In this document: in pieces, positions 23,616 through 48,622 of the stretch | How the letters are laid out: every line of letters begins with the position of its first letter | Position numbering within the stretch: position 1 is the first letter of the stretch | Origin: a virus | Lineage: Duplodnaviria; Caudoviricetes | Virus record (IMG/VR): IMGVR_UViG_3300037466_003648 | Coordinates: 96,001-160,000 of that record | Direction: 5' to 3' (one strand) | DNA: 64,000 nucleotides | Made by a program: the position numbers and the translations under genes | The notes under the pieces: model-generated | The model's input: only the letters and a program-made list of their open reading frames with translations | Database searches by the model: none | Told to the model about the DNA's origin: nothing

Positions 23616-24020
23616 ATGCCCTGGTACGAAGAGTTCAAGATCAACGTCCGCGCCGATGAAAACGGCAACCCCGTCCCCCAGCACCAGATCAACCTGAGCA
23701 GCAAGATGCCGCCCATCCCGCGTAACCCCGGCAACGTGTGGGTGTTCGTCGAAGGGCGTTTGTTGGCGCCCGAGCTGCAGTGGCGGCAGGTCGGTCAGCG
23801 TGAGATCGCGTGTCTGCCGATCAACCCCGGTCAGCATTGGCACGTCAAGATCTGGCTCGATAAGCCGTACGAGGGCACCACCTACACGACGCCCGACAGC
23901 ATGCAGAACGCGGACCCCAATTCCGCCCATGTGCAGGGCATCGTCGAGCAGGGGCGGCATGCCGATCCGAACGCCAACATCAGCATCGGTCGCACGCACC
24001 AAGGGCCGCGGTACCAATGA
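23616..24020 (+). CDS. hypothetical protein
   Basis: AGGAG RBS; ATGA overlap with rnhB. Confidence 0.6.
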   Translation: MPWYEEFKINVRADENGNPVPQHQINLSSKMPPIPRNPGNVWVFVEGRLLAPELQWRQVGQREIACLPINPGQHWHVKIWLDKPYEGTTYTTPDSMQNADPNSAHVQGIVEQGRHADPNANISIGRTHQGPRYQ

Positions 24021-24760
24021 GCAACGTCATCGGCATCGACGAGGTCGGTTGGGGCGCGCTCGCGGGTCCTGTGGTCGTGTGTGCGGCCAGCGTTCCGTTC
24101 GGGCAGTGGGACGTGCTCAAGGGCTGGGGCTTCCGGGACTCCAAGAAGGTCGGCAACGATCCTAAGAAGGTGTCACCCAACCCCCGCACCCGCTACTCGG
24201 CCAACACCTGCGATAAGCTGGTTGACCTGTTGGAGTCGGATGCTGGGAAGGGTTTGGCAACCTGGGCAATCGGCCACGCGGACGCAGCCGATGTCGACCG
24301 CGAGACCCCGCTCTCTGCCAAGAACCGCATCATCCGCACGGCGTTCATGCAGCTGTGTCTCGCCAATGGGTGGGACATGGCGCACGACGTCGAGGTGATC
24401 ATGGACGGCCAGGACAAGGTGCCGACCCTGCCCGAGTGTGTGCCGCAGGAAGCCATTCCCAAGGCGGACGACCTCATCCTGCCCGTGTCGGTCGCGTCGG
24501 TGATTGCCAAGAGCTACCGGGACAAGCTGATGCGCCAGCTTCACACGCGCTACCCCGCCTACGGCTTCGACACCAATGTCGGCTATGGGACGGAGAAGCA
24601 CTTCGAGGCGTTGATCAAGTACGGCCCTATCCCCGGTGTTCACCGGCTTTGCTACGTCAAGAGCCAGGTGGAGAAGTACTACTACCGCACGTACACCGAC
24701 CGCGACCAACGGCGTAAGGCGCTCCCCAAGTGGGTAAATGACCTGGGTTGGGCGCGCTAA
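24017..24760 (+). CDS. rnhB: ribonuclease HII
   Basis: GIDEVG.G.LAGPVV, DSKK, MDG, KAD, ASVIAK..RD, YGF..NVGYGT, HR. Confidence 0.93.
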   Translation: MSNVIGIDEVGWGALAGPVVVCAASVPFGQWDVLKGWGFRDSKKVGNDPKKVSPNPRTRYSANTCDKLVDLLESDAGKGLATWAIGHADAADVDRETPLSAKNRIIRTAFMQLCLANGWDMAHDVEVIMDGQDKVPTLPECVPQEAIPKADDLILPVSVASVIAKSYRDKLMRQLHTRYPAYGFDTNVGYGTEKHFEALIKYGPIPGVHRLCYVKSQVEKYYYRTYTDRDQRRKALPKWVNDLGWAR

Positions 24761-24770
24761 AGGAGAACTC

Positions 24771-25007
24771 ATGGAAAAGTTTGGTGTCATTGCTCTGTTG
24801 GTGCTCGTCGCTTTGTGCGGCTGCCCGGAGAAGAAGGCGGAATACCTCAATCCGGGTTGGAACTACGAGTCCATCAACATGATTCATGACGAAGGCACCT
24901 TGGTGTACCGACTGAACAGCGGTTGGGCGATCTACGACAAGACGAACGAGGGCCGCATCGTCATCATCCGTCGGTGGGGTGGCCCCGGTCCCGCGCCGAA
25001 GGAGTAG
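24771..25007 (+). CDS. predicted lipoprotein
   Basis: Hydrophobic signal ending in LCGC lipobox; AAGGAG RBS before ATG 24771. Confidence 0.6.
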   Translation: MEKFGVIALLVLVALCGCPEKKAEYLNPGWNYESINMIHDEGTLVYRLNSGWAIYDKTNEGRIVIIRRWGGPGPAPKE

Positions 25008-25010
25008 CAC

Positions 25011-25268
25011 ATGTACTTTCAGAAAGCGTCGGAGGCCGTTCACGCGGTGCTCCGCAAGTGCGAACTGCAGACCCAGAAGGGCACCCACCCAGATGACCAG
25101 AGCCACTTCAGCGACGACCTCCAGATCGACGATCTCGAAGAGCTGGAGCTGATCATGTTCCTCGAAAAGGAGCTGGACATCGAGATTCCCGACGAAGATG
25201 TCGCCGACCTGCGTAATCAAACTGTCGACTGGCTCATCAAGTACCTGATGATCAACCACCATCACTAG
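25011..25268 (+). CDS. acyl carrier protein-like protein with Asp replacing the attachment Ser
   Basis: DDLQIDDLEELELIMFLEKELDIEIPDED aligns with the ACP pattern DLG.DSLD..EL.M..E.EF.IEIPDE. Confidence 0.82.
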   Translation: MYFQKASEAVHAVLRKCELQTQKGTHPDDQSHFSDDLQIDDLEELELIMFLEKELDIEIPDEDVADLRNQTVDWLIKYLMINHHH

Positions 25269-25280
25269 AAGGAGAACCCC

Positions 25281-27395
25281 GTGGCAGACCTCCAAGACGG
25301 CTTCGGCAGCGCCCCCGTAAAGATGCGCAGCGCCGATGCCGAGGCGCCCAAGGAAAAGGCGGCGCCGACCGTGAGCCTGCCCGATGGCTTCGGCAGTGGC
25401 GAGAAGCGTGCCCCGCGCAGCCTCGAACGCCTCAACGATGACCAGCGCGAGATCATCGCGTCCAAGGCGAAGCGCAAGCTCGTCGTGGCGGGCGCGGGCA
25501 GTGGCAAGACCTCCGGTGTCTTGCTGCCCGCCTGTGACCAGCTGTACCTCGATCGACCCGGCCGCATCGGCATCTTCTCGTTCGGCAAGCTCATCAAGGA
25601 GGAGCTGGAGGAGAAGATCCAGACGGTCCTCGATCCCATAGCAGCGAGCAAGACCAAGGTGTGGACGAACCACGCGATTGGTTTGCGCATGGTCATGAAC
25701 AACCTGGAAGAGCTGGGGCTGCCCAAGGACACCGAGTTGGAGGGCACCCTCTGGAAGATGGTGGCCTGGCTGCGTGAACAAACCGCCGAAGAGACGCGCC
25801 AATCGGCCGCCAACCGGACGCCGCATTTCCGCTTGGAGTTCGGTGGCTTCTCGGATCCCCAGATCAAGGCGCTGCTTGCGATCGAGGAGACCTTGATCGC
25901 CAACGGTGAGCCGCTCGACGGCGAGAAGATCGGGCAGCAGCTGTCCGCCTTCAAACCGCTGGAGCAGTTGATGCGGAGCCCGGATGGTAAGCGCATCGCG
26001 TGGAGCTACATCCACTGGGCGCGCACCATGCGCATGGTGCGCGGCAAGCTGATGTTCCGGGACCTGCTGCCCCTGGCGGCGCTGTTGCCCGATGAACGCT
26101 TCCGTTCGCTGAACCTCAAGCACATCCTCGTGGACGAGGCGCAGGACTTGTCGGCCGACCAGCACGCGGTCATGCGCAAGCTCTCGAACGTGGTAGAAAC
26201 CACCCTGTTCGTGGGCGACCCGGCCCAGTGCATCTACCGCTTCAGCGGCTCGCGTCCCGATCTGTTCATGGGCATCAAAGACTCCTACCAGGATGTCCAG
26301 ATGTTCACGATGGGTGTGAACTACCGCTGTGACGAGCCAATTCTGGACCTCGCCAACCACATGCTCAAGAACGTCATCCAGTCCCCGGTGCGCTTGTCGC
26401 CCCCGGAAGACCGGATGGGCGGTCCCATCGAAACAGGCAACGCCACGGGCAAGGAACTGTGCGGTTGGATCGAGAAGCGTATAGCCGACGGCGAGCAGAA
26501 GCGCGACATTGTGGTGCTCACCCGCACCAACGCCCAGCTGTTGACCATCGAGTTGGCGCTGACGCGCGCGGGCATCACCTACAACTGCTGGAAGGGTTCG
26601 CTCTTCGAGCACCAGGCGGTTGACGACTTCTTGGCGTACGTACGCTTCCTGGCCTCCGAGCGCTCCGCGAGCGACTGGAGCAAGATCGTCACGCACATCA
26701 AGTTCCTGGGGAAGAAGACGGCCGACGACGCTTGGGACATCTCGCAGGGCGACCCGCTCAAGATGCCCAGCAGTTGGTACCCCTCGACGGTTAAGGGCGA
26801 CGCGGCGAAGAAGCGCTGGTTTGATCTCACCGGTCGCCTGCGCGAGCTGCGCGACCGGATGCAACCGCGGGAGTTTGGCAGTGCACAGGTCACCTGGCCG
26901 TCCGTATTGTTCAACCAGCTCAAGGGTGTCTGGCTGGAGCGCTGGCCGGATGACCCGGACAGGTTGCGTGAAGCGGAAGAGATCGGCGAGGTCTTCGTCG
27001 AGTGGGCCAGTGAGATTGCCGATCCCATTGCCTTGCTCGACCAGATCGAGACGATGTCCGTCCAGGACCCCAATGGTGTCGTGCTCTCTACCCTGCACAA
27101 GTTCAAGGGTTTGGAGCGCAACTCCGTTGTTGTCTGGAACGTGGGCATGGGCAAGTCCAAGGGTCTCTTCCCCCGCAATGGTGGCGACGCCGAAGAGGAA
27201 GCGTGCATCTTCTACGTGGCCGTCACCCGCGCGCGGCACCATCTCCTGTTGCTCAAGAACATCGAGTGCGCCTGGCCCTACGGGATTGACACGATGTTCT
27301 GCCAGCAAGGTCTCTTGCTCCCAGTCCACGGTACACAGAAACCCTGTGTCTCGTGTCCCTACGAGTTCTCGTGCCTAGCCAAGCTAGGTGCATAG
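25281..27395 (+). CDS. UvrD/Rep-family SF1 helicase with C-terminal 4-Cys module
   Basis: AGAGSGKT, VDEAQD, VGDPAQCIYRFSG, NYRC, STLHKFKGLE, YVAVTRAR. Confidence 0.92.
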   Translation: MADLQDGFGSAPVKMRSADAEAPKEKAAPTVSLPDGFGSGEKRAPRSLERLNDDQREIIASKAKRKLVVAGAGSGKTSGVLLPACDQLYLDRPGRIGIFSFGKLIKEELEEKIQTVLDPIAASKTKVWTNHAIGLRMVMNNLEELGLPKDTELEGTLWKMVAWLREQTAEETRQSAANRTPHFRLEFGGFSDPQIKALLAIEETLIANGEPLDGEKIGQQLSAFKPLEQLMRSPDGKRIAWSYIHWARTMRMVRGKLMFRDLLPLAALLPDERFRSLNLKHILVDEAQDLSADQHAVMRKLSNVVETTLFVGDPAQCIYRFSGSRPDLFMGIKDSYQDVQMFTMGVNYRCDEPILDLANHMLKNVIQSPVRLSPPEDRMGGPIETGNATGKELCGWIEKRIADGEQKRDIVVLTRTNAQLLTIELALTRAGITYNCWKGSLFEHQAVDDFLAYVRFLASERSASDWSKIVTHIKFLGKKTADDAWDISQGDPLKMPSSWYPSTVKGDAAKKRWFDLTGRLRELRDRMQPREFGSAQVTWPSVLFNQLKGVWLERWPDDPDRLREAEEIGEVFVEWASEIADPIALLDQIETMSVQDPNGVVLSTLHKFKGLERNSVVVWNVGMGKSKGLFPRNGGDAEEEACIFYVAVTRARHHLLLLKNIECAWPYGIDTMFCQQGLLLPVHGTQKPCVSCPYEFSCLAKLGA

Positions 27396-36425: not shown

Positions 36426-36707
36426 TTGCTAAAACTGTACGCCCTGCTAATGATCGTGGGAGCGATCATCGCCTTGACCGGCTTGCTCTGGGCGATCCCG
36501 GAGTACGGTCAGCTGTACCGCACCTGGTTCGTGCTTTCCTCCACCAAGTCGACCGATGCGGTTTGGTTGACACGGCTCTCCGCCCAAGTGCAGATCCACC
36601 GCCTCAACTGCTTTGCCGAGGCGCTGGGTTCCTTGGCCGGACTCTTCATGATCGTGGGCGCCTTGTTAGGCATCTCGATCGAGCGGTTGCGTTCGGCGCC
36701 GCGTTAG
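36426..36707 (+). CDS. small membrane protein with two TM segments
   Basis: GGAGGAG RBS, TTG start at 36426; two hydrophobic stretches. Confidence 0.65.
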   Translation: MLKLYALLMIVGAIIALTGLLWAIPEYGQLYRTWFVLSSTKSTDAVWLTRLSAQVQIHRLNCFAEALGSLAGLFMIVGALLGISIERLRSAPR

Positions 36708-39700
36708 AACCATCCGGTGTGAACCAGGGCATCGTAGACGACGTTGGAAGCACGGTCCAGCACACCGGAACGTGTCGGGGTCGGCGGTGCCACGTCCGCG
36801 CGGGCAGCGTGTGGGCTTGGGGTGTGTCCCTTGATCTGGGCACGACCGCCCTTGACCGTCACCGTTGGGCGCGGCTTTGGCTGCGCCTTGTTGGCGGAGT
36901 CGTTGCTGCCCTGTCGTCCCTGGGGCGTGTTGGTCTGGAGGGTGACGACCATCTTCTTCTTGGCGTTCTTGGGCGCCAGGGACGGCGGCTTGGGCAGCGG
37001 AGACATCTGCTCCAGAATGTCTGGTGCCAGCACCAAAGGCGGGTGGGTGTTCTCACCCTCCCGATCCTTGCGCACGCGCTCGCGCATCTGCAAGTTCTGG
37101 ACGACCAGGTCCGGCGACGGGTGGTTACGACGCCAGAACTCGACCATGTCTCGGTCCGCCTGACGCATGGGGCTCTGGGGCACCAACAGGTCCGTCTGGA
37201 ACGTGCGTTCGTAGTGCCAGGAACCCGCCGCGCCCATCAGCACTTCGAGACCCTTCTTCTTGTTTGCCCATGCGGCCTTCGCGTAGTCGCTCAGGTGCGT
37301 TGTCACCTGGTTGTACTTGTCCTCGTCGCGTGCGTAAGGGCTCAAGCCGCCCGACGCCTGTGGGAACGCCTCGAAGACGGCACGCGCCAAGCCCGTCTGC
37401 CAGTTGCCGGGCATACGCTGGAACTTGTAGGTGTCCATCACACGGTAGTAAGGCACGCCTTGAATGACCGCCGGGCGGACCAGCGCACGACCGATGGCGA
37501 GCTTCTCCGCCTCGACGTCGATGCCGCGCTGGGACGTGCTGACGTAGTCGGCGTACTCGATCGAGTGCGTCTTGCGCTTCGCAGACTCTTCCAGTGCGAA
37601 GCGGTAGCGGTTCAGCTCGTGGCTGGTGAAGCTGCTCTCCGTCATGGCGCCCATGTACGAGTTGTCGTGGCGGCCGAGACCGGCCCAGAACTGGCCTTGG
37701 TAGCGCACGAAGGACGGCACCGATGCACGACCAATCCAGCGCAGCACCTCACCAGGTGCGCTGGCAACGGTACCCACCGTGTTGGTCAGCAACCCCTTGG
37801 TGGCCGTGTTGATCTTGTTGATGCCCCACACGGTCGCACCACCCGCAACAACCGCGGCACCCAACCCAGCCGCCACAGGTGCCCACGCGGGAGCGGTGAT
37901 CACACCGGCCGCGATCAGCCCGGCGGTGCCCGCAGCCGCGGCACCAAAGGCGAGACTGCCCGTGTACATACCGGTAGCACCCGACACCACGTTCAGACCC
38001 GCCTCGCGGCGCTGGGTCTGCGAGGTACCAAAGACGGTTTGCAGGGCGTCCCAACCCACCGCAAGCCCCATCGAGACACGACCGAATGCCTTCGAGGCCG
38101 CCCAGGTCGCTACACGACCCAAGACCCGCATGCCCCGCGAGAGCTTCTGACCCATCCAGTGTGCCGCGTGTCCGGTTGCCGTCGCCAACTGACCCAGTGC
38201 ATGCAGCGCGGTCGACGTCGTCACCATGCCCAGGTTCCAGGTCGCACGGCTCCGCTCTTCGGGGGACGACGTCGAATCGGACAGGGTGTTGATGTCCAAG
38301 GCCGCGAAGGCCGCGCTCAAAGCGAGCGTGCCACGCAATCCCGCAAACGTGTTCGGTGCGCGACCGGGACCGGGTACTGGACCCAGCGGGATGACAGCAG
38401 GCGCCACTGCCGTGTTGGGACGACCCCGGACGGCAGCTGTTGCCCCAGAGCCCAACAAGAGCTGGGGAGTCGAACCCAGAGGAATGACACCGGGCGTGAC
38501 CGCCGTGTTGAGACGACCCCGCGGGGCTGCTACCGTACCAGGACCCAACAAGAGTGGATCGGCGTTCACCGGACCCAAGGCGATCAGGTCGGGCGTGTGC
38601 GCCCCGTTAAGGCGTCCACGGATCTGGGAGGTGGCGGGAGTACCCATGCCCAACACCAAGGGGTTTGCCGGGGCTCCCAGTGCGATCACTTCGGGCGTCA
38701 CGGCACCGTTGAGACGACCCCGCGTGATGGGTTCGGCCGTTACGCCCGGACCCAACAACAAAGGCGCCGTTCGCGTCTGCAGAGAACGCAGCCCCATGCC
38801 ACGGCTGTAGGTGCGTGCCGCGCTGGCAGACTCTTCCAATGGAGCTGCTGCCACGCTCAAGCCGCCGCCCATGGTCAACCCACGGCCCCGCAGCAGCTCG
38901 TAGCCGATCGGCTGACGGGTGGCGGGAGCGGGTTGGTCGGGATGCAGCATGCTCAACCCCGGTCCGTAGGTGGCTCCGTTCCGAGCCAACAGACTGACCG
39001 TCCGGGTCGACAGGCTACCGGGAACACGGCTCTCGGCCATCGCCATTGCATCTTCAATCAGGTGCATCGTGGGCGTTGGACGTACCGCGAAACGTCCTGT
39101 GCTTGGGTCGCGGTAGCGACCTGGCTGCATGATGGGATCGGGACGGAAGCGTGGACGACGCGGCACCACCCCGTAGGTCATTTCGACCAGGTCGGGGTGC
39201 GTAGGGTAGCTCTCACCTTCAACCGGCATGAAGCCGAAGCGCTCACGGCCGGTGGTCCACCGATAGCCATGATCATTCACCAGACGATCGAGAATGGGCA
39301 GCATGCCGCCTCGCTGACCCGCAGGGGCGGGACGGAACCGGCCATCAGGACCACGGTGCGGCAGTACTCGACCGGGCAATTCGATGACATCGGGCGTCGC
39401 CACCGCGTTGGCGCGACCCACCCCGCCCGTTTCCATTTGCTGGCGGAGTACCGTCAACTGCTTGCGAACGGGATCGGTGTGCGGCGCATGCGTACCGTTG
39501 AACAACGCGCCCAACACGTCGTTCTTGGAATGTCCCCACGGGAGACTCCAGACACCCTTGTGTTGGAAGGCCACAATGTGGTCGGTGTTCATCACACCAC
39601 GACCCAACAGACGGGGGTGCAGGTCCCGACGCGGGGCAGCGTTGACCCGATTGTACTCGGGCGTGAACGAGGGATGATCCCCGCGATCGGGCGAACGGAA

Positions 39701-42700
39701 GCGGCCCTGCGAGAAACCAATACCTCCTTCGCGCATGCCGTCCATGACGATGCGCAGGTTGCTGTCACCCAACACCTGCGACACGGAGGTTGCACGCGGC
39801 ATGGCCAAACCATGGGCGCCCGTACGCTCCAAGGGTGCGTCGAAGCGCAGACGCGCATCTCCGTGGAATGGGGTTGCGTGTGCGGGCGCCGCGGGACGCA
39901 GCCCGGCCGCGCGTGCCTGCATATCTTCGCGCAGCGCCACCAATTCTGTGCGAACGGGGTCGACGCCGATCATTCCCTGTTGGGTAGAGACGTGGGCAGC
40001 CACCGTTTGTGGAGCCGCCTCGGGCTTGCGCCAGCCCATCACGGTTGCCAACTGGCGTCCGACCATCGACAAGCCCTTACGGGCCAGCTGCGCAGCGGCG
40101 ATCGTGCCAAAGATCAACGTCGTCCCTGCCGCGAGCGTCGCCAGGTACTGCAACGTGGTCTGGTCCGCATTGCCTTGCGTGGGGTTCTTGCTCATGTCCC
40201 GCACGCCGTACGCGATCGGACGACCTGCACTGTCGTGGGTCGTGCCCGTGAAGAAGCCCCGCTCGCCCAGCATCTGGCGGTACTTTGTCTGCACCTGCTC
40301 GGCGCGCTGACGATCGTACCCCATGCGCTCCTGCAGCAGGTCCGCAATGCGGTCACCCCCAAACTTGCTGTCGACGCTGCCCGCGATGGCTTCCTGCAAC
40401 GCCTTGAACTGGGGGCTGGGGGCCGCCGTGCCGAACGGATGGAAGATCGCGTCGATCTTGCGACCGGGAATGAAGCTGTTCATTTCCGCTGCCGTCTGGA
40501 CCGTCTTGTTGCTGTTGTCCGCGAACTTACCATCACCAATGTAGGTGAACCAGTGCCGTCCGCTGGAGGGGTTCATCGACATCGGATCGGAGCCGGGCAC
40601 GAAGGTCGCGTACAGCACGTCGCCGACGTGCACGCCACCCGTTGCCACCAGGGTGCTGAGCTGAGAGATCGGCACGCCGCGGTGCGCCAGGTCAGCGGGA
40701 ACATCCGTGCGGATGTCCTTGCCGCCCATGCGCATGATCAGGTGACGCGAGTACTGGAAGCATTCGTGCGCGGTCGCAACGAACGGGCCGTTGAGGTGTG
40801 CAATCATCTGCTCGCGAGAAGGTGCCGCACTGGGCGGCTGAATGCCCGCGGCTTCTAGGATCGCATCCGCCTTCTGCTGCGGCGTGGCGATGCGACCCAG
40901 GCTCGCGTTCAGCTTCTTGCTCCAGTAGCCGGGATCGTCTTGTGGGAGCCAACGGCTCTCGTTGTAGAGGTTGGCACGCACGCGACCGGCCATGGTCTGT
41001 GCGATCGCAGGAGACAGCCCCGCACGCTCGACCATGAACTTGTCCAAGCTTCCCTTGTAGCCACCCTTCATGTACTCCGGCAGCACGCGCTCCAAGGTGG
41101 ACTGCTGCTCCTTGGTTAGCAGTGGCTTGTCCTGCGCGACCGAACTCGGTGCCAGGGTGCGAATCTCGCGGATCGTCTGCTCGATGTGGCTGCCGTACGT
41201 GCGGTCGGTCGCGTAGATGCCCGTGATGTTGTAGCCGAAGGCAACGGCATTGTGGTCCTTCTTGTACTGGGCCAACGCCTGTGCGTAGACGGGGTTCTGT
41301 ACGAACAGCTTGCCGTGCGCCACCATCGCCTCTTCCAGCGAACCGTAGTTGGCGAAGTCCGCGTACGTGGTCACGCGCCGACCGCCGACGTCTTCCCAGG
41401 TCTTGAGGTGCAAGCTGCCCCGCGAGCCACGACCCTTGATGCCGAACAGGTTAAAGTCGCCGATCTTGGAAGCGCCCCAACCAGATTCCCACGCCGCCTG
41501 AGCCAGTGTCACTTCGGCCGGTACACCGTACAGCTTCTCAGTCATCTCGGCACCGGCGCGCAGGCTCGCGACGAAGCCCGCCGCTCCCTGACCCAGGTGC
41601 GTACGAGGCGCGTTCGCCAACAACACCGCGTTGCGCATGTCGGTGCCGCTCGCGGGCTTGATGACCTCGCCCGTGAAAGGCTTCTGTGGGCGACCGCGAC
41701 CAGTGGTCCCAATCGTCGCGTCACCACCCACGAACCCACCGTAGGCATGACCCGTGCGATGCCAAACACCACCCAGGATGCCGGTTTCGTAGATCAAGCC
41801 GCGGCGCAGCAGCTCGCCTTGGATGATGCTGTCGGGACCGGACGCCGACCGGTAGCGGAAGGCACGCGCTGCCTGGGCGTTACCCAACCCACCCGTGCCG
41901 CGACCCCGTTGCATGTAGAGCGACTTGAGGCTGTAGTCGTGGGCGGGCATGTCGTTGCCACCCTCCATCAGCCCCAGCGCGTCGCGACCGACCATGTCCA
42001 GCACGGTCTCGTGACCCATCGCACCCGACAGGCGCAGACGCTCCTGTTGGGCGAAGGCCAACGCCCCCGCGTCCATCATCCAGCCAGTGCCGCCACCCTC
42101 CGGCGTGGCCGAGTTACGGCCCCAGAAGATCGGGCTTGCCTGCGCCCACAAGGGCGACAGCGAGAAGCTCCACCCTTCCTGGTTCGCCTTCGCCGCCTCG
42201 AAGAGATTGCCCGGCGCGAGCATAGGACCGATAAAGTTGGCGGTGCCGATCAGGAAGCTCGCAAAGCCGGTCGGCTGCGTCTGTCCCTTGGGCGTCAGCG
42301 TACGTGCCAGTCCGTAGAGTGAACCGGTGACATTCGCCTGCAGCCCAATCGCGGCACGGCTGATGGCATTGCCTACCATCGACGAGCCGGGGATCGAGGC
42401 TGCCGCGCGACCGCTGGCACTCACCACGGACGTCATGGTCGTGCCCAGCGAGGTCGAAGCCCGCTCCGCCCAATTGCGCTCTTCGGGGCGCTTGCTCAGC
42501 GCGCTCTCCGAGAGGTGGTGCTGCGCCATCATGCCGCCGAAGCCCAACGCGGCGAGGCCACCACCCACCAACAACGCAGGCAATCCCACCAAACCGAAGT
42601 AGCCAACAGCCGCGGCGCCCGCCACGGCGCTGCCACCCAAGAACAGTTCGGCCGTCAGCGAGGCACCACCCGCCTCCGCGAACTTCTCCTTCTGCTCCGT

Positions 42701-45700
42701 CGTCAGGAAGTCCGACGACTGGGCGGCCATGCCCGTCGCCACCTGGGCGATCGAGAGTCCTTGCATGACACGACCAAAGCCGTCAAAGGCACCCAACCCC
42801 AGACCCACAGCACCGGCAGCACCCCGACGCAGGTAGCCGGGTGCCGTGGACTTGATCTCGGTCAGGCGAGCTTCCACCGCCGCGCGATGCGCCGCGTAGC
42901 CGCCGGTCGGATCGTTGCGGAAGAGGTAGTCCGCGGGCTTGGTCGTGGCGCCGGGGATGTGCATCCCTGGTGTGTGGGGTGTGAAGGCGGGCTCCAAACC
43001 GGCTCCCGCAACCACGTTCTTGGCGAGTCCCGCGCCTGTCATCCCTGCCTCGCGGAACACCGCGTTCATGTCGATCGGTGCGGTGCCCGCGATCGTACCG
43101 AACTCGTTGAGCATGCGACGCATGATCTGCTCGTACTCGCTCATGAGATCGTCGGTGATCGCGGCCGTCGACGTCGTGGGCAGGCGCAGACCCAGGTCGC
43201 CGATGGCCTTCTGGGTCTCGAACCACGCCGCACTGGGCATGTGACCTGCAGGCATCGAGGTCGGGTGCAGCTTGTCCAACACGTCGAGCACACGTCCCAG
43301 CGACGCACCCATAGCACCCGCCGTGCGGATCTGGGGCAGACCCTCGTAACGCGCGAGCAGCGTGTTGAAGCTTCGCTCAACGAGCTTCGCCTTGTCGCGT
43401 CCGGCCATCACCGTACCGCGAGGATCGGTGCTGTCGGCAAAAGGACGGCCTTGGTAGTCGCCGTAAGCGCGCAACCCATCGCCACCCATCACGGGCAGGT
43501 CGACGCGGTACAGCCCCGCCTTGTTACCGGACAGTGTCCAATGGGGATGGGCGCCCGGACCATGCGGCGCCTCTGGCGAGAGCAGCACGCCGTGCGTCTT
43601 CGCCTGGTGCGTGGGCATGTAGCGCTCGACACGCTCCTGCCAGGTCTCGCGCTCGCCACGCACCCCACGCCAGGCAGCGAACATGGGACGCGCCATGAAG
43701 TGTGCTGCAAACGGTACCGCCGCCAGCGCACCCACCGCCGCGGCGCCCACCAGTGTCGTGGGGTTGGCGAGCCAGTTGACCTGGTACTCGCTCAGCGTGC
43801 GTGCGCCGGTCGGGATGCCCAGCAGGGTGCCTTCCTCCGTGCGAGGTGCTCCCATCAATGCGGCAATGTCGTCTTCGGCCTCCACGTCGCTCGTGCCGGT
43901 GCGATCGGCCTGACGCTGCCCCGCGTACGTCTTGCTGAAGTCCGCCTGGTCCAGCGCTCCGGCCTTGCGCCAGATACCGCCCATCAGGTTGCCCCAGCGG
44001 AACTGCTGGGTCACGCCACCGTCCATACCTCGCACTTGTGCGGTGTAGGTAACTTGGTGCAAGAACGCGGGCTTCGCGCCACCCGGCAAGAACTCGCCGC
44101 GGTAGCGACGGTACTCCGACGGCCACATGCCCAGTGCCGCACGCGACTCGTTGTAGCGCACGGCCATGGCCAGCTTGAGTGCGGGGTCCGCTTCGTACAT
44201 GGGCGAACCCGGCATGAACATGCGACCCATGAATGCGGCGCGCTTGCGGCCGACCCATTCGGTCTCCAACACCTTGCGGGAGCCCCCGATCGCGGCAGCC
44301 AATTGCGAGTCGATCTCACCCGACGACTTGGTGCGCGTGACGTGCCAACCCGTGTTGTAACCGATCGACATGAGTCCGCCGAAGAACATCTTCGTGATCT
44401 TCCAGGTCGCCATCTCCATCGAGTCGGGACCCGTCTGCTTGAACGCAGCGTGCAGACCCAAGTCGCTGTAGGCTTCCGCCGTCATGAAGAACTCTTCGGG
44501 CTTGCCCATGCCGACGGTCTGCTTGGCCGCGCGGTTGAGCATGTCCCAGATACCCAGGTAACCCGGACGGAAGCGGCCCTTGTCACCCGCCGCGCCCGAC
44601 TCGGCCGAGAGCGAGTCCGTGGGACCCGCCGCGAAGCGACGCGCTTCCTGTGGATCGATCGGGGCGGCCACGTTCTTGAGGTCGACGGTCTCGCCGAAGA
44701 GTCGGCTCGCCGAGTTGCCGATCAACGGGATCGCCTTGAGCATCTGGCGGTAGCCGCCCATCTGCTCGCGGTAGCCCTGAGGGTCACCTGTGCTCATCGC
44801 CCGTGCAAAGGCGTAGCCGGTGTAGCCCATGAACAGACCCACGGCGCCACGGGCACCCACACGGTAGCCCCGCGTCAGCTGACCGGTGCGGCGCGTCAAC
44901 TCGTTGACCCAGCCCACGTTGCCGCGGGTGATGCCCTGTGCAGCCACCGTGAAGCCCGCGTTCAGCGCGCGAGGTACCAGGGTCAGGGGCAGCTCGGCCA
45001 GCTCGTTCGCCAGTCCGAAGCCCACCGCCCCCATGCCATAGGCGAACTTGGCGATGCCCCGAGACTTGACCATGCGCTCGGCCATCCCGCGGTTCATGTT
45101 GCCCAGCATACTGAACCCCGAGCCGCGCATCTCGCCCGTACGGATGTAGGCGGCAACGTTGCGTCCCGCATCGAGCAGGCTGCCCCCGTTGCGTGCGAAC
45201 AGCCCCGCCCCGGCGTAGGCACCCAGAGGCGCAAAGCCGTAGGTCGTGGCGAGACCGACACCAATCATTCCAGCACCCAAGCGGACCGAAGCTTCCCAGT
45301 TGGTGTTGGGCTCGTAGCCGAAGCTCATGCCGAAGCGCACGGCATTCGCCGTCCAGCCGTCCTCGCCGCCGGTCGCGTCGATGAGGGCACGCAGGGCGCC
45401 GTCCATCGGGATCTCTTCTTCGTTCTTGTGGTCTCGGTACCAATCCCGGAAGCCCTTGCGACCGCGCAGATCGGAGTAGTAGTACGGGAGCTTGACACTG
45501 CCGTGGATGCCCGACGGCATGCCCAGCATCGCCGTCAGCATGAAGGTGGTCTTGCCACCCTCGACGACGGCGCCGCCCCAGACCGAGCCCAGGGGCAGGT
45601 AACCAATACGCATACCGTACGCCAGCGACAGCGAGACCTGTGCCTTGTCGGCCTGACCCGCCCATTGCTGCGCCATGTCGAGCGTCGCCCGGATGGCACC

Positions 45701-48622
45701 CAGTTCTGCCTGGTCACGAGGACCGGCGCCAGCTGCCACCAGCTTTTCCATGCGCCCCAACGACATGCGCTCCGTCTCGTTGACCATCATCGTGGTCGCC
45801 ATGGTCTTGGTGACGACCTTGTACATGAGGTCTTCACGACTGGCCATGAACGACATGGTCATGTCGCGCTGCATCGCGGTCAGGCGATCGACAAAGTACC
45901 CGGCGATGCCAGACGCCGACCAGTCTCGCAGACCCGCACGCTCCACCTCGCGGTAGGGGTTGTAGCCCCGCAGGTCGCTCGCCACCGAGACCATCTTGGT
46001 CGCGCGCTGGGCAGCCCCCAATGGGTTGAAGGGGTTCATCGACATCCCGGCAACGAACTGGGCACCCCAACTCAAGCCGGTGCTCAGCCCCACCGCGAGC
46101 GCGGGCATGATGTCCAGGATACCCGCCAACCCGCTGCGCGGTGCCAGGTCGGCCCAGCCAAAGTTGGTGACCGTCCCCGCCGCCCCGTGCAGCGTGTTCT
46201 CGCGGTCGATCTGGGTCTCCAGGGTCTCGCGCTTGGCAGACGCCAGCATGCCATAAGCGTGGGTCGCCACCGCGCCGACAAACAGTGCCTGGACGCCACG
46301 ACGGGCCAAGGCACGTCCGGGAGTCAGGCCGGTCTCGCCGTAGAGGTGTCCATAGGAACGCGCGAATTGACCTTGTGCGTGGGCATCACGCCACAGCTCT
46401 TGGGCGCGCGACCAGTCGCCCCGCAGCGCCGCACCCCACCCCGCGCGGCGTGTCGCGCGCATCCCCGCGATGTGAGGGTTTGGTGCCAGGTTGAGCACGT
46501 CGGCGACGAGCCCGCCACCCGGCAGCTCGCGAATGAAGCGATTGGCAACTTGGTTGACCGCCCGAAAACGCTCGTGCAGCGTCATGCGCTTGGCGTCGTG
46601 CTCGATCTCGTAGATCGTGTGAACATGCCCGCTAGGCAGCGTCACCGTCTTGACGTTGATCTTGCCGCCGCGCTGACGACGCAGGTCGAGCGCGAGTTGG
46701 CGGTCGGTGACCTGGACCTTCTTGAGCGACGACTTGTGGTCGTACACGCCCATGACATCGTCGATGAACTTGCGGCCAACGTCCCCCGCTACCGCCCCGT
46801 AGGCTTCGCGCTGGACGCCCCACAAACCCTTGGAGATGCCCGCGTGCACGTCCATCGCGTACTCGCCCGCCTGACCAGCCGCCACCGTCGCGTCACGCAC
46901 GAACGCCGACACCGGGCCATGCACGGGCGCGTTCAGCACCCGATCCCCGATGGTACGACTGATCCGCCCCATCCCGGAAGCCGCCCGCGCACCGATCTCG
47001 GCCATGAACATGGTCGACCGGATCAAGCCGATGTTCATTCCCAGGTTGAAGAGCGTGTCGTCTACCCAACGAGCGCCATCGGCATAGGTGCCCTCCGCCT
47101 TCGCGTCGATCGGACGGTAGTCGGCAGAGCCGTAAACCCGCAGCTGCTCGTCTTGATGGTTCCGACGATCGATCTGGGCGCCCAGGTTGACCAGCAGCGA
47201 GCCCAACGGCCCGCGGTTACCGCGTGCCTCGGTCAGCTCGCTCGCCGTGGCCGCCCAGCCACTGCCGAAGCGCTGGTTGACGTAGTCCGTGATCTGACCG
47301 CGCCACAGCTCGCCGAAGGTGGGCAGCATTGCCTCGCGGTCGCTTCGCGTGATGACGTCCGGCATGGACGACGGCAACTGCCCCTCGTGTCCACCTGCGT
47401 ACATCTCGGTGTAGAGGTGGCGATAGAAGCGCCCGGCCGAACGCATCGGGTTGACGAACGATCCCTGCTCGTGCGTGGCCGCTGCCCACGCGTACGCCTT
47501 GCGCGTGTCGGCATCGAAGATGACCTGGGGGTCCACGACGTACTGCCACGCCTTGCGTTGGCCGCCCAGCGAGATGCCGTGCAGGGGCATCATCGACGGC
47601 ATGAAGGTGCCCAACTTCGTGAACGGCATGCGCAACTGCTCGCCCGCACCGAAGTCGAAGTTGGACTGAACCTGACGAGCGATGTCGGCTGCCACACGGG
47701 CATCGCGGGCGTGCAGCATCACTTCGGTGGAGCGCTCGCCGTTGTAGCCTTCCACCGCGGTCTTGGAGAAGCGCATGGAGCCCACCATGTAGGTGTCACC
47801 CATGGCGATGACGTTGGCGTGCCACGGGCGGTTGCCCCAACCCACATGCAGGTTGGTCAGCGTGCGTCCTGCCGCCGTTAGCTTCTGGAACGCACGACCC
47901 TCGTTATTGATGTCTTGCTGGTTCAGACCACCCAAGCCCACGTAGACCTGATCGCCGCGGCGCGCCTTCTGGATGATCGAGTCCAGGACGTGCGGATCGG
48001 AGAGCGTGGCCGACGCGATGTACAACGCTGCGTGGTTACCCCGATCCCCGATGATGCGGCTCAGCACGTCCAGCGCGGTGCCCGTGTCCTTGGGACTGGC
48101 GACCAGCAGATTCTGGGTCGAGACCGGCGCACGACCAGCAGCGATCGCGCCCAGCACCGTGTCCATCTGGCGGACGAGGTTGGCATCGCGGGTTGCCACG
48201 AAGTAGTTGAACTGGGTCTTGTCCTGGCCGGAGAAGCGGCTGTACTCCGGCAGCGTCGCCATGCCCAAACCCGTCTTGGTCATGTTGGCGGTGCCAACGA
48301 ACATCACACGATCGCCGGTCGGGCTCGTGAACTCGCCGACCTTGGCGTGCAGACGCGAGCCGAAGGTCTTGCGATCGGCTTCGATCAGGTTCGTGTGACC
48401 CTTCAGGGTCTCGTAGGCTTGGGGGTTGGACCACTTCGCGGTGGTGCGCTCCGAACCCACGATGCGACCGCCGCCGGACAGAACCGAACGCGTGAGCCGG
48501 TTGTCCTCCACCTCGTAAGTGGTCATGACCGAACGCGACGACATACCGAGCAGGCTCAGTCGAGCCTGCTCGTCATCCCGGCCAAACCAGGTAGGCGAGG
48601 TGCGATCGTCGAAGGTGGGCAT
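36704..48622 (-). CDS. giant virion protein (tape-measure or ejection-like) with PLD-like, GH73 and NlpC/P60-like domains
   Basis: 3972 aa; HAK...GTANMT and HAN...GSMRFS; AQAAWESGWG...NLFGIKG...YATD; ECFQY...GDVLY...HWFTYIGDG; several hydrophobic Gly/Ala segments. Confidence 0.8.
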   Translation of the reverse strand: MPTFDDRTSPTWFGRDDEQARLSLLGMSSRSVMTTYEVEDNRLTRSVLSGGGRIVGSERTTAKWSNPQAYETLKGHTNLIEADRKTFGSRLHAKVGEFTSPTGDRVMFVGTANMTKTGLGMATLPEYSRFSGQDKTQFNYFVATRDANLVRQMDTVLGAIAAGRAPVSTQNLLVASPKDTGTALDVLSRIIGDRGNHAALYIASATLSDPHVLDSIIQKARRGDQVYVGLGGLNQQDINNEGRAFQKLTAAGRTLTNLHVGWGNRPWHANVIAMGDTYMVGSMRFSKTAVEGYNGERSTEVMLHARDARVAADIARQVQSNFDFGAGEQLRMPFTKLGTFMPSMMPLHGISLGGQRKAWQYVVDPQVIFDADTRKAYAWAAATHEQGSFVNPMRSAGRFYRHLYTEMYAGGHEGQLPSSMPDVITRSDREAMLPTFGELWRGQITDYVNQRFGSGWAATASELTEARGNRGPLGSLLVNLGAQIDRRNHQDEQLRVYGSADYRPIDAKAEGTYADGARWVDDTLFNLGMNIGLIRSTMFMAEIGARAASGMGRISRTIGDRVLNAPVHGPVSAFVRDATVAAGQAGEYAMDVHAGISKGLWGVQREAYGAVAGDVGRKFIDDVMGVYDHKSSLKKVQVTDRQLALDLRRQRGGKINVKTVTLPSGHVHTIYEIEHDAKRMTLHERFRAVNQVANRFIRELPGGGLVADVLNLAPNPHIAGMRATRRAGWGAALRGDWSRAQELWRDAHAQGQFARSYGHLYGETGLTPGRALARRGVQALFVGAVATHAYGMLASAKRETLETQIDRENTLHGAAGTVTNFGWADLAPRSGLAGILDIMPALAVGLSTGLSWGAQFVAGMSMNPFNPLGAAQRATKMVSVASDLRGYNPYREVERAGLRDWSASGIAGYFVDRLTAMQRDMTMSFMASREDLMYKVVTKTMATTMMVNETERMSLGRMEKLVAAGAGPRDQAELGAIRATLDMAQQWAGQADKAQVSLSLAYGMRIGYLPLGSVWGGAVVEGGKTTFMLTAMLGMPSGIHGSVKLPYYYSDLRGRKGFRDWYRDHKNEEEIPMDGALRALIDATGGEDGWTANAVRFGMSFGYEPNTNWEASVRLGAGMIGVGLATTYGFAPLGAYAGAGLFARNGGSLLDAGRNVAAYIRTGEMRGSGFSMLGNMNRGMAERMVKSRGIAKFAYGMGAVGFGLANELAELPLTLVPRALNAGFTVAAQGITRGNVGWVNELTRRTGQLTRGYRVGARGAVGLFMGYTGYAFARAMSTGDPQGYREQMGGYRQMLKAIPLIGNSASRLFGETVDLKNVAAPIDPQEARRFAAGPTDSLSAESGAAGDKGRFRPGYLGIWDMLNRAAKQTVGMGKPEEFFMTAEAYSDLGLHAAFKQTGPDSMEMATWKITKMFFGGLMSIGYNTGWHVTRTKSSGEIDSQLAAAIGGSRKVLETEWVGRKRAAFMGRMFMPGSPMYEADPALKLAMAVRYNESRAALGMWPSEYRRYRGEFLPGGAKPAFLHQVTYTAQVRGMDGGVTQQFRWGNLMGGIWRKAGALDQADFSKTYAGQRQADRTGTSDVEAEDDIAALMGAPRTEEGTLLGIPTGARTLSEYQVNWLANPTTLVGAAAVGALAAVPFAAHFMARPMFAAWRGVRGERETWQERVERYMPTHQAKTHGVLLSPEAPHGPGAHPHWTLSGNKAGLYRVDLPVMGGDGLRAYGDYQGRPFADSTDPRGTVMAGRDKAKLVERSFNTLLARYEGLPQIRTAGAMGASLGRVLDVLDKLHPTSMPAGHMPSAAWFETQKAIGDLGLRLPTTSTAAITDDLMSEYEQIMRRMLNEFGTIAGTAPIDMNAVFREAGMTGAGLAKNVVAGAGLEPAFTPHTPGMHIPGATTKPADYLFRNDPTGGYAAHRAAVEARLTEIKSTAPGYLRRGAAGAVGLGLGAFDGFGRVMQGLSIAQVATGMAAQSSDFLTTEQKEKFAEAGGASLTAELFLGGSAVAGAAAVGYFGLVGLPALLVGGGLAALGFGGMMAQHHLSESALSKRPEERNWAERASTSLGTTMTSVVSASGRAAASIPGSSMVGNAISRAAIGLQANVTGSLYGLARTLTPKGQTQPTGFASFLIGTANFIGPMLAPGNLFEAAKANQEGWSFSLSPLWAQASPIFWGRNSATPEGGGTGWMMDAGALAFAQQERLRLSGAMGHETVLDMVGRDALGLMEGGNDMPAHDYSLKSLYMQRGRGTGGLGNAQAARAFRYRSASGPDSIIQGELLRRGLIYETGILGGVWHRTGHAYGGFVGGDATIGTTGRGRPQKPFTGEVIKPASGTDMRNAVLLANAPRTHLGQGAAGFVASLRAGAEMTEKLYGVPAEVTLAQAAWESGWGASKIGDFNLFGIKGRGSRGSLHLKTWEDVGGRRVTTYADFANYGSLEEAMVAHGKLFVQNPVYAQALAQYKKDHNAVAFGYNITGIYATDRTYGSHIEQTIREIRTLAPSSVAQDKPLLTKEQQSTLERVLPEYMKGGYKGSLDKFMVERAGLSPAIAQTMAGRVRANLYNESRWLPQDDPGYWSKKLNASLGRIATPQQKADAILEAAGIQPPSAAPSREQMIAHLNGPFVATAHECFQYSRHLIMRMGGKDIRTDVPADLAHRGVPISQLSTLVATGGVHVGDVLYATFVPGSDPMSMNPSSGRHWFTYIGDGKFADNSNKTVQTAAEMNSFIPGRKIDAIFHPFGTAAPSPQFKALQEAIAGSVDSKFGGDRIADLLQERMGYDRQRAEQVQTKYRQMLGERGFFTGTTHDSAGRPIAYGVRDMSKNPTQGNADQTTLQYLATLAAGTTLIFGTIAAAQLARKGLSMVGRQLATVMGWRKPEAAPQTVAAHVSTQQGMIGVDPVRTELVALREDMQARAAGLRPAAPAHATPFHGDARLRFDAPLERTGAHGLAMPRATSVSQVLGDSNLRIVMDGMREGGIGFSQGRFRSPDRGDHPSFTPEYNRVNAAPRRDLHPRLLGRGVMNTDHIVAFQHKGVWSLPWGHSKNDVLGALFNGTHAPHTDPVRKQLTVLRQQMETGGVGRANAVATPDVIELPGRVLPHRGPDGRFRPAPAGQRGGMLPILDRLVNDHGYRWTTGRERFGFMPVEGESYPTHPDLVEMTYGVVPRRPRFRPDPIMQPGRYRDPSTGRFAVRPTPTMHLIEDAMAMAESRVPGSLSTRTVSLLARNGATYGPGLSMLHPDQPAPATRQPIGYELLRGRGLTMGGGLSVAAAPLEESASAARTYSRGMGLRSLQTRTAPLLLGPGVTAEPITRGRLNGAVTPEVIALGAPANPLVLGMGTPATSQIRGRLNGAHTPDLIALGPVNADPLLLGPGTVAAPRGRLNTAVTPGVIPLGSTPQLLLGSGATAAVRGRPNTAVAPAVIPLGPVPGPGRAPNTFAGLRGTLALSAAFAALDINTLSDSTSSPEERSRATWNLGMVTTSTALHALGQLATATGHAAHWMGQKLSRGMRVLGRVATWAASKAFGRVSMGLAVGWDALQTVFGTSQTQRREAGLNVVSGATGMYTGSLAFGAAAAGTAGLIAAGVITAPAWAPVAAGLGAAVVAGGATVWGINKINTATKGLLTNTVGTVASAPGEVLRWIGRASVPSFVRYQGQFWAGLGRHDNSYMGAMTESSFTSHELNRYRFALEESAKRKTHSIEYADYVSTSQRGIDVEAEKLAIGRALVRPAVIQGVPYYRVMDTYKFQRMPGNWQTGLARAVFEAFPQASGGLSPYARDEDKYNQVTTHLSDYAKAAWANKKKGLEVLMGAAGSWHYERTFQTDLLVPQSPMRQADRDMVEFWRRNHPSPDLVVQNLQMRERVRKDREGENTHPPLVLAPDILEQMSPLPKPPSLAPKNAKKKMVVTLQTNTPQGRQGSNDSANKAQPKPRPTVTVKGGRAQIKGHTPSPHAARADVAPPTPTRSGVLDRASNVVYDALVHTGWF
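38360..38775 (-). repeat. four degenerate ~31-35-aa tandem repeats in the giant protein
   Basis: Repeated unit PLLLGPG...RGRLN.A.TP..I.LG; DNA repeat GTTGAGACGACCCCGCG. Confidence 0.8.

What the first reader, a model, noticed from the sequence alone, without database searches (positions are those of the whole stretch)
25011..25268. ACP-like protein that cannot be phosphopantetheinylated (DSL changed to DDL)
Seen: strong ACP similarity around helices II-III (ELELIMFLEKELDIEIPDED), but the invariant Ser position is a GAT Asp codon (25131-25133). No Ser codon is one substitution from GAT, so a single-base error is unlikely. Established: holo-ACP needs this Ser, and ACP also binds partners such as AcpS, Fab enzymes, SpoT and MukB. 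Inference: an acidic ACP mimic, with Asp imitating the phosphate, that titrates host ACP partners to alter lipid synthesis or the stringent response, or to block an ACP-dependent defence. It lies next to a lipoprotein gene in the replication module.
Basis: partly seen in the sequence, partly recalled or inferred. Interest (0 to 1): 0.75.

Follow-up and report, generated by a model that had tools for sequence, protein, structure and literature searches.

The report
Phage acyl carrier protein lacking its serine
A 205-kb soil phage carries a small, intact gene for an acyl carrier protein look-alike that keeps the protein's docking surface but has lost the serine needed to carry fatty acids, so it most likely works by binding other proteins, perhaps as a decoy for host enzymes.

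Summary
Window 25011-25268 (+) is an 85-aa ORF with an AAGGAG ribosome-binding site and coding-type composition. It matches acyl carrier proteins (ACPs) and folds as an ACP four-helix bundle. Asp41 (GAT, 25131-25133) aligns with the phosphopantetheine serine, Ser36 of E. coli AcpP. The same letters stand in contigs of three further soil or rhizosphere runs, so this is not an error. The phage encodes no phosphopantetheinyl transferase and no second ACP.

New here: six related replication modules join RNase HII directly to the UvrD-like helicase. Only this phage and its nearest relative have an ACP-like gene in that slot, and the relative's copy is also serine-less (Pro). The gene is therefore accessory. 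The Asp itself is not conserved, which argues against "Asp mimics the phosphate" as a requirement. Helix II-III is 58% identical to the ACP consensus, against 11% for the N-terminus.

Other serine-less (Asp/Glu) ACP-like genes occur in unrelated phages, a giant-virus-like contig and bacteria.

Best reading, at about 0.45: a permanently unmodified ACP that binds proteins which normally dock ACP. No target is known. This is a new variant of a known kind. The scan had noted this same stretch once before.

The parts
25011..25268 (+). ACP-like ORF, 85 aa plus stop, pI 4.5, 20 acidic and 7 basic residues
24999..25004 (+). Ribosome-binding site AAGGAG, 6 nt before the ATG; it abuts the lipoprotein stop codon at 25005-25007
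25131..25133 (+). GAT codon for Asp41, at the position of the phosphopantetheine serine (AcpP Ser36), at the start of helix II
25116..25208 (+). Residues 36-66, the helix II to helix III recognition surface; 18 of 31 residues identical to the ACP consensus
24771..25007 (+). Probable lipoprotein gene, 78 aa; together with the ACP-like gene it fills a slot that is empty in most related phages
24017..24760 (+). RNase HII gene, the conserved left flank of the slot
25281..27395 (+). UvrD/PcrA-like helicase gene, the conserved right flank; it starts 13 nt after the ACP-like stop codon

Best explanation
The gene encodes a permanently unmodified ('obligate apo') member of the acyl carrier protein fold. 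It cannot carry acyl groups because the attachment serine is Asp, and the phage has no transferase. It has kept the acidic helix II-III surface through which ACPs dock onto their partners. It most likely acts purely by protein-protein binding, as a non-productive decoy or adaptor for one or more proteins that normally dock ACP. Candidates are host AcpS, acyltransferases such as PlsB, PlsX or LpxA, other fatty-acid-synthesis enzymes, or a moonlighting partner. It would be expressed with the replication genes as an accessory host-takeover or counter-defence function.

Shown: the fold, the loss of Ser, the retained surface, the accessory status and the recurrence elsewhere. Inferred: that it binds ACP partners, which partner, and the consequence for the host.
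For: 1. The fold is ACP and Asp41 sits at the Ser position.
2. The 205-kb genome has no PF01648 transferase and no second PP-binding gene. The other serines (S7, S31, S34) are not in a D-S-L context.
3. Conservation is lopsided: 18/31 identical to the ACP consensus in residues 36-66, against 3/28 in residues 1-28. D40, E46 and E52 correspond to the AcpS ion-pair residues D35, E41 and E47 (bioRxiv 10.1101/2025.01.28.635281).
4. The ORF is intact, has an RBS, and is identical across contigs from several soil studies.
5. The nearest relative (helicase 65% identical) has an ACP-like gene in the same slot. It scores 65.7 bits against an ACP profile but has Pro at the Ser position. Two serine-less copies are thus kept intact in one lineage.
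6. Serine-less Asp/Glu ACP-likes occur in unrelated phages and prophages, near helicases, nucleases and recombinases, and in a giant-virus-like contig.
7. Precedents exist: an obligate apo-ACP (S39A) suppresses E. coli growth and apo-ACP inhibits PlsB (PMC4736557, citing Keating 1995); apo-AcpP stimulates the MukB ATPase as well as holo-AcpP (PMC8602292); Plasmodium mACP functions without the prosthetic group (PMC8547962).
Against: No partner has been identified and the host is unknown. There is no expression or phenotype data. Six related replication modules lack the gene, so it is dispensable for replication. Some of the conserved helix II-III residues are structural, so their retention does not prove a live binding surface. 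The two copies in the same slot share only 43% identity over 49 residues and are not each other's nearest ACPs, so long-term selection on one shared function is not shown. Ser-bearing phage ACPs also sit near recombination genes, so the genomic position does not separate a decoy from an ordinary carrier.
Confidence: 0.45

Rival explanations
1. It is an accessory subunit or regulator of a phage DNA-metabolism enzyme, such as the adjacent UvrD-like helicase, RNase HII or another ATPase. The ACP fold would serve as a small acidic adaptor, much as AcpP serves MukB.
For: The gene sits 13 nt upstream of the helicase gene, and the same adjacency is seen in the nearest relative. Other serine-less copies lie next to SNF2, VapE-like, DUF87 or SbcC-like ATPases and PD-(D/E)XK nucleases. 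AcpP is a Ppant-independent cofactor of MukB (PMC8602292).
Against: Six related phage contigs have the same helicase and RNase HII without any ACP-like gene, so these enzymes do not need it. Neighbourhood in a densely packed, same-strand phage module is weak evidence.
Confidence: 0.15
2. It is a decaying remnant of a captured ACP gene that lost its serine and has no function of its own.
For: It is a singleton with no close homologue among 5.8 billion and 1.8 billion proteins. Its N-terminal third has diverged strongly. The residue at the Ser position differs between the two copies in this slot, Asp against Pro. The gene is absent from most relatives.
Against: The ORF is intact with a good RBS, and the fold is predicted with confidence. 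Conservation is concentrated on the recognition surface. Phage genomes tend to delete useless DNA quickly. A second intact serine-less copy occupies the same slot, and many independent serine-less copies occur elsewhere.
Confidence: 0.15
3. It is a generic acidic DNA mimic, in the manner of Ocr, ArdA or Gp5.9, that blocks a host nuclease, restriction enzyme or SMC-type complex by charge mimicry and not through ACP-specific contacts.
For: pI 4.5 and a net charge of about -13. It is small and lies in an accessory slot of the early/replication region. One serine-less relative (P0088) sits directly upstream of a DNA methylase gene. A T7 DNA mimic that inhibits MukBEF is on record (PMC7617805).
Against: All structural matches are ACPs. 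What is conserved is the specific ACP motif and not merely acidity. Canonical ACPs are equally acidic, so charge does not discriminate.
Confidence: 0.08
4. It is still a carrier protein, modified at another residue or by an unusual host enzyme.
For: S31 and S34 lie in the loop just before helix II.
Against: Neither serine is in a D-S-L/I context at the N-terminus of helix II. No transferase is encoded. At least one other Asp-bearing ACP-like protein (P0135) has no serine at all.
Confidence: 0.03

Closest known systems
Bacterial type II acyl carrier protein (AcpP; Pfam PP-binding PF00550) and the phage-encoded ACPs annotated as auxiliary metabolic genes (phrog_5934, phrog_4154)
   Same: Same size, acidity and four-helix fold. 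The helix II-III motif is shared: D-D-L-x-x-D-x-L-x-x-x-E-L-x-M-x-x-E ... I-E-I-P-D-E-D.
   Different: The phosphopantetheine serine is Asp. The Pfam score is just under the cut-off. Helix I and the first loop are diverged, and the loop is longer. No transferase or acyl-ACP-using enzyme was found in the phage.
Engineered obligate apo-ACPs (E. coli S36T, Synechococcus S39A) and apo-ACP toxicity (PMC3340395; PMC4736557, citing Keating et al. 1995)
   Same: An ACP that cannot be modified. Such proteins fold, inhibit growth when overproduced, and apo-ACP inhibits glycerol-3-phosphate acyltransferase.
   Different: Those are laboratory mutants of the host's own ACP. This is a natural, diverged, virus-encoded protein whose effect is untested.
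Plasmodium falciparum mitochondrial ACP lacking the Ppant group (PMC8547962)
   Same: A natural ACP homologue that lost carrier function but kept an essential protein-binding role.
   Different: It is eukaryotic and organellar, and its partner (Isd11-Nfs1) is known. Here the partner is unknown and the gene is an accessory gene of a virus.
AcpP as cofactor of the MukB SMC ATPase (PMC8602292)
   Same: Shows that the ACP fold can act on a DNA-metabolism machine independently of the prosthetic group.
   Different: No SMC-type gene was found in this phage, and MukBEF is confined to some gamma-proteobacteria (from general knowledge).

Membership tests
Acyl carrier protein / PP-binding (PF00550) | Four-helix-bundle ACP fold | tested here: met
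   AF2 pLDDT 85 with helices 2-16, 41-55, 61-64 and 72-83. The top 50 Foldseek PDB hits are all ACPs, TM 0.6-0.77. The Atlas structure search agrees.
Acyl carrier protein / PP-binding (PF00550) | Sequence match above the curated family threshold | tested here: not met
   19.1 bits against a cut-off of 20.8. It is nevertheless significant against phrog_5934 (2.7e-9) and against solved ACPs (about 3e-6).
Acyl carrier protein / PP-binding (PF00550) | Conserved Ser of the D-S-L motif at the start of helix II, the phosphopantetheine attachment site | tested here: not met
   Asp41 (GAT) aligns with Ser36 and is confirmed in independent runs.
Acyl carrier protein / PP-binding (PF00550) | Acidic recognition helix II and the following loop | tested here: met
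   18/31 identical to the consensus in residues 36-66. D40, E43, E46, E52, E54, D56, E58 and D61-D63 are retained.
Acyl carrier protein / PP-binding (PF00550) | Actual carriage of acyl groups on a 4'-phosphopantetheine arm | not testable with these tools
   Needs mass spectrometry or an AcpS/Sfp labelling assay.
Phage ACP auxiliary-metabolism module | Companion transferase or acyl-ACP-using enzymes in the same genome | tested here: not met
   No PF01648 match and no second PP-binding gene in the 205-kb genome. Other lipid enzymes were not searched.
DNA-mimic anti-restriction proteins (Ocr, ArdA, Gp5.9 type) | A surface charge pattern that imitates B-form DNA, or similarity to a known mimic | tested here: inconclusive
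   The protein is strongly acidic, but all structural matches are ACPs. The charge geometry was not analysed.

The most novel reading that the evidence does not exclude
Serine-less, usually Asp- or Glu-bearing, ACP look-alikes form a recurrent class of virus-encoded decoys. They would have arisen independently in jumbo phages, temperate phages and giant viruses, sit in replication or nucleotide-metabolism regions, and hijack or block a conserved host hub that docks ACP: lipid synthesis, the stringent response or an SMC-type machine. In some cases they may work together with a RelA/SpoT-type HD hydrolase.
Probability: 0.25. Interest if true: 0.8.

Novelty: new variant of a known kind. Interest (0 to 1): 0.55.

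Why it matters
Phage ACP genes are routinely filed as auxiliary metabolic genes for lipid synthesis. This one cannot be a carrier, yet it is kept intact with the docking surface preserved. Similar serine-less copies turn up in unrelated viruses. If they are decoys, they would be a simple and testable way for viruses to interfere with a central bacterial hub protein whose unmodified form is already known to be toxic. They would also point to which ACP partner matters most during infection. It is a caution for annotation too: a PP-binding hit does not imply carrier function.

Tried and rejected
- tblastn of the protein and megablast of the region against 50,697 GenBank phage records found no match.
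- Peptide-pattern scans of IMG/VR with the UvrD-like helicase, primase and RNase HII found no relatives. Relatives came only from the protein database search.
The relatives could therefore only be searched within about 5 kb of the helicase, not genome-wide.
- The metagenome scan with the protein returned 80 loci, all canonical Ser-bearing ACPs found through the IEIPDEDV pattern, and no close relative.
- A homologue search with the relative's ACP-like protein (P0266) returned only itself.
- Complex prediction of the ACP-like protein with the UvrD-like helicase gave no verdict (score 0.00, controls not run).
- The look-up of sequencing runs listed no RNA holder, so nothing can be said about expression.
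- I considered whether Asp/Glu is enriched at the Ser position. Among the HMMER hits there were 14 Asp and 6 Glu against 8 other residues. However, a query bearing Asp favours Asp and Glu, and one IMG/VR pattern demanded them. Only 2 Glu among about 57 hits reachable by the position-neutral pattern is usable, which is too few.
- I considered that a replication-module position marks the serine-less forms. I rejected this because Ser-bearing phage ACPs also lie near RecT, RecE and methylase genes.
- No HD_4 (RelA/SpoT-type) or SMC-type gene was found in this phage.

Full report
**What is there**

The window is bases 96001-160000 of a 205,180-bp IMG/VR virus record with direct terminal repeats, 63% G+C. 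This is a jumbo phage. Near-identical DNA occurs in soil and rhizosphere metagenomes from several studies.

The ORF 25011..25268 (+) encodes 85 residues. AAGGAG lies six bases upstream of the ATG. GC3 is 0.80, like its neighbours. The gene lies in a tight same-strand run: DEAD-box helicase, primase, a 134-aa ORF, RNase HII, a 78-aa probable lipoprotein, the ACP-like ORF, a UvrD/PcrA-like helicase, a 157-aa ORF and ribonucleotide reductase. No promoter-like site lies inside this run, and terminator-like sites are no more frequent than in shuffled sequence.

**Is it an ACP, and is the serine gone?**

- Pfam PP-binding scores 19.1 bits, just under the 20.8 cut-off.
- The PHROG ACP family phrog_5934 matches at 2.7e-9.
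- Solved ACPs match at 3e-7 to 3e-6. The three best of these are tagged constructs whose His-tags align with the natural C-terminal HHH. Untagged E. coli AcpP gives 3e-6 over residues 28-78.
- An AlphaFold2 model built on 75 sequences has pLDDT 85 and helices 2-16, 41-55, 61-64 and 72-83.
- All 50 best Foldseek PDB matches are ACPs, TM 0.6-0.77. The ESM Atlas look-up agrees, and its nearest clusters are mostly viral ACP families.

In the HMMER alignment, D40-D41-L42 faces AcpP D35-S36-L37. Asp41 is the first residue of helix II in the model. The codon is GAT at 25131-25133, two changes from every Ser codon.

The identical protein is recorded on six contigs. Contigs from three further runs of different studies cover the codon without a difference. 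A sequencing error is therefore excluded.

The other serines (S7, S31, S34) are not in a D-S-L context. The phage genome has no PF01648 transferase and no second PP-binding gene.

**What is conserved**

| Residues | Region | Identical to consensus of 73 ACPs |
|---|---|---|
| 1-28 | N-terminus | 3 of 28 |
| 36-66 | helix II to helix III | 18 of 31 |
| 67-85 | helix IV | 6 of 19 |

The retained acidic residues include D40, E46 and E52. Their E. coli counterparts D35, E41 and E47 form ion pairs with AcpS (bioRxiv 10.1101/2025.01.28.635281). The protein is as acidic as a normal ACP, with pI 4.5, 20 acidic and 7 basic residues.

**Relatives**

No close homologue of the protein exists among 5.8 billion clustered proteins or 1.8 billion representatives. 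The next-best hits are generic ACPs at E 5e-10 or weaker.

The neighbouring helicase does have a clear clade of relatives at 38-66% identity. I read seven of their contigs.

- Six of them have RNase HII followed directly by the helicase. Their helicases are 63%, 56%, 56%, 44%, 44% and 42% identical to ours, and one is a 208-kb NCBI assembly.
- A profile search found no ACP-like ORF in the five of these six contigs for which DNA was available.
- The closest relative (65%, locus L013) has a 77-aa PP-binding gene exactly in this slot. It scores 65.7 bits against an ACP profile. Its motif reads D-L-G-A-D-P-L-D, with Pro (CCT) in place of Ser.

So the ACP-like gene, and in our phage the lipoprotein gene too, is an accessory insertion into a conserved module. 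Both carriers of the insertion have lost the serine, but to different residues.

The two proteins share 43% identity over 49 residues and are not each other's nearest ACPs by score. I cannot tell whether they descend from one insertion or were captured independently at the same spot. Either way, the identity of the replacing residue is not conserved. That argues against Asp being needed as a phosphate mimic in this lineage.

**Serine-less ACP-likes elsewhere**

Among the 145 HMMER hits, 150 domains have Ser. Another 14 have Asp (including the query), 6 have Glu and 8 have other residues. One Asp-bearing protein, P0135, has no serine at all.

| Protein or locus | Residue at Ser position | Setting |
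|---|---|---|
| P0088 | Asp | between a DUF87 ATPase and a DNA methylase, in a RecT/integrase region |
| P0097 | Glu | after PD-(D/E)XK and SbcC-like genes, before RusA |
| L118 (IMG/VR) | Glu | between a Toprim primase and an SNF2 helicase, near gp32 and DnaB |
| L130 (IMG/VR) | Glu | between a VapE-like protein and a PD-(D/E)XK nuclease |
| L146 (IMG/VR) | Glu | a few kb downstream of an SbcC-like gene |
| L141 (235-kb contig) | Glu | overlapping the end of an HD phosphohydrolase gene |
| L145 (476-kb contig) | Asp | flanking ORFs scanned had no informative PHROG match |
| P0077 | Asp | ACP-like domain, next to an RNase_T exonuclease and ribonucleotide reductase, in a contig with RING-finger and phospholipase B genes (giant-virus-like) |
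| P0084 | Asp | ordinary bacterial context |

Three cautions apply.

- A query with Asp favours Asp and Glu, and one of the two IMG/VR patterns demanded them. The Asp/Glu excess is therefore not established.
- With position-neutral patterns, 80 of 80 metagenome ACPs and about 55 of 57 viral ACPs keep Ser.
- Ser-bearing viral ACPs lie in mixed contexts that include RecT, RecE and methylase neighbourhoods. Position does not separate the two kinds.

**How it most likely works**

The protein cannot be a carrier, yet it is kept intact with the docking surface preserved. The simplest reading is that it works by binding.

- An obligate apo-ACP (S39A) suppresses E. coli growth, and apo-ACP inhibits glycerol-3-phosphate acyltransferase (PMC4736557, citing Keating et al. 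1995).
- The S36T mutant cannot replace acpP (PMC3340395).
- ACP can also act without its prosthetic group: apo- and holo-AcpP stimulate the MukB ATPase equally (PMC8602292).
- Plasmodium mitochondrial ACP, which lacks the group, stabilises Isd11-Nfs1 (PMC8547962).

I therefore favour, at about 0.45, a natural obligate apo-ACP that acts as a decoy or adaptor for proteins that dock ACP, most likely host proteins. It would be made with the replication genes as an accessory host-takeover or counter-defence function. The target and the effect are inferred, not shown.

Rivals are:
- an adaptor for a phage DNA-metabolism enzyme (0.15);
- a relic without function (0.15);
- a generic DNA mimic (0.08);
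- a carrier modified elsewhere (0.03).

A complex prediction with the adjacent helicase gave no verdict. No RNA run is listed.

**Comparison with what is known, and novelty**

Phage-encoded ACPs are known as auxiliary genes (PHROG families; PMC13573597 describes ACP, lipoprotein and phosphohydrolase islands in flavobacterial jumbo phages). My literature searches found no description of virus-encoded ACPs that lack the attachment serine. The library is incomplete, so this is not proof of absence.

I file it as a new variant of a known kind: an ACP-fold homologue that fails the defining carrier feature and probably works like an apo-ACP. Interest is moderate to fairly high. The mechanism remains open.

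An earlier first-stage note of this scan describes this same stretch (e1-5404297). Another agent's note that related phages exist (e1-5404307) prompted the search for relatives.

Noticed in passing
L013:17-613 and L141:4339-4911: An HD_4 (RelA/SpoT-type HD hydrolase) gene lies three genes upstream of the serine-less ACP-like gene in the nearest relative (40.8 bits). A weaker HD_4-like phosphohydrolase gene (23 bits, phrog_990) overlaps the start of the Glu-bearing ACP-like gene in an unrelated 235-kb phage contig. A published 'host-interface island' in flavobacterial jumbo phages also combines ACPs, lipoproteins and a phosphohydrolase (PMC13573597). This may be a functional pairing. Our phage has no HD_4 gene.
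   Followed up: partly
window 24771-25268, compared with L011, L012, L014, L015, L016: The lipoprotein gene and the ACP-like gene together form a two-gene insertion between RNase HII and the UvrD-like helicase. These two genes abut directly in six related contigs, so this is a variable slot in an otherwise conserved replication module.
   Followed up: yes
P0155, P0156 (L016:5001-8033) and L012:7532-11593: In related phages, inteins interrupt the UvrD-like helicase (Intein_splicing, 1010-1050 aa) and the ribonucleotide reductase (Hint/LAGLIDADG, 1353 aa). The copies in this window are intein-free.
   Followed up: no
window 36704-48622 (-): A single open reading frame of 3972 aa with coding-type composition (GC3 0.81). 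It is a giant protein gene and was not examined.
   Followed up: no
P0084, P0102, P0112: A small bacterial family of ACP-like proteins with an N-terminal extension, predicted hydrophobic in P0102 and P0112. P0084 and P0112 share a conserved D-D-L-E-P-V-E motif with Asp at the Ser position. P0102 has a shortened motif (T-D-L-E-P-V-E). P0084 lies near a phosphatidylserine decarboxylase gene.
   Followed up: partly
P0002, P0005: Proteins with a signal-peptide-like N-terminus and three tandem ACP domains. The first two domains keep D-S-L, while the third has Asp (P0002) or Glu (P0005) at the Ser position.
   Followed up: no
L159/L160:5001-5708 (P0077): A 235-aa protein seen on 31 contigs. Its C-terminal ACP-like domain has Asp at the Ser position. 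It lies between an RNase_T exonuclease and a ribonucleotide reductase, in a contig that also has RING-finger and phospholipase B genes and looks like a giant virus of eukaryotes.
   Followed up: partly
window 25257-25265: The protein ends in three histidines. They align to the His-tags of recombinant ACP entries and slightly inflate the best PDB sequence hits.
   Followed up: yes
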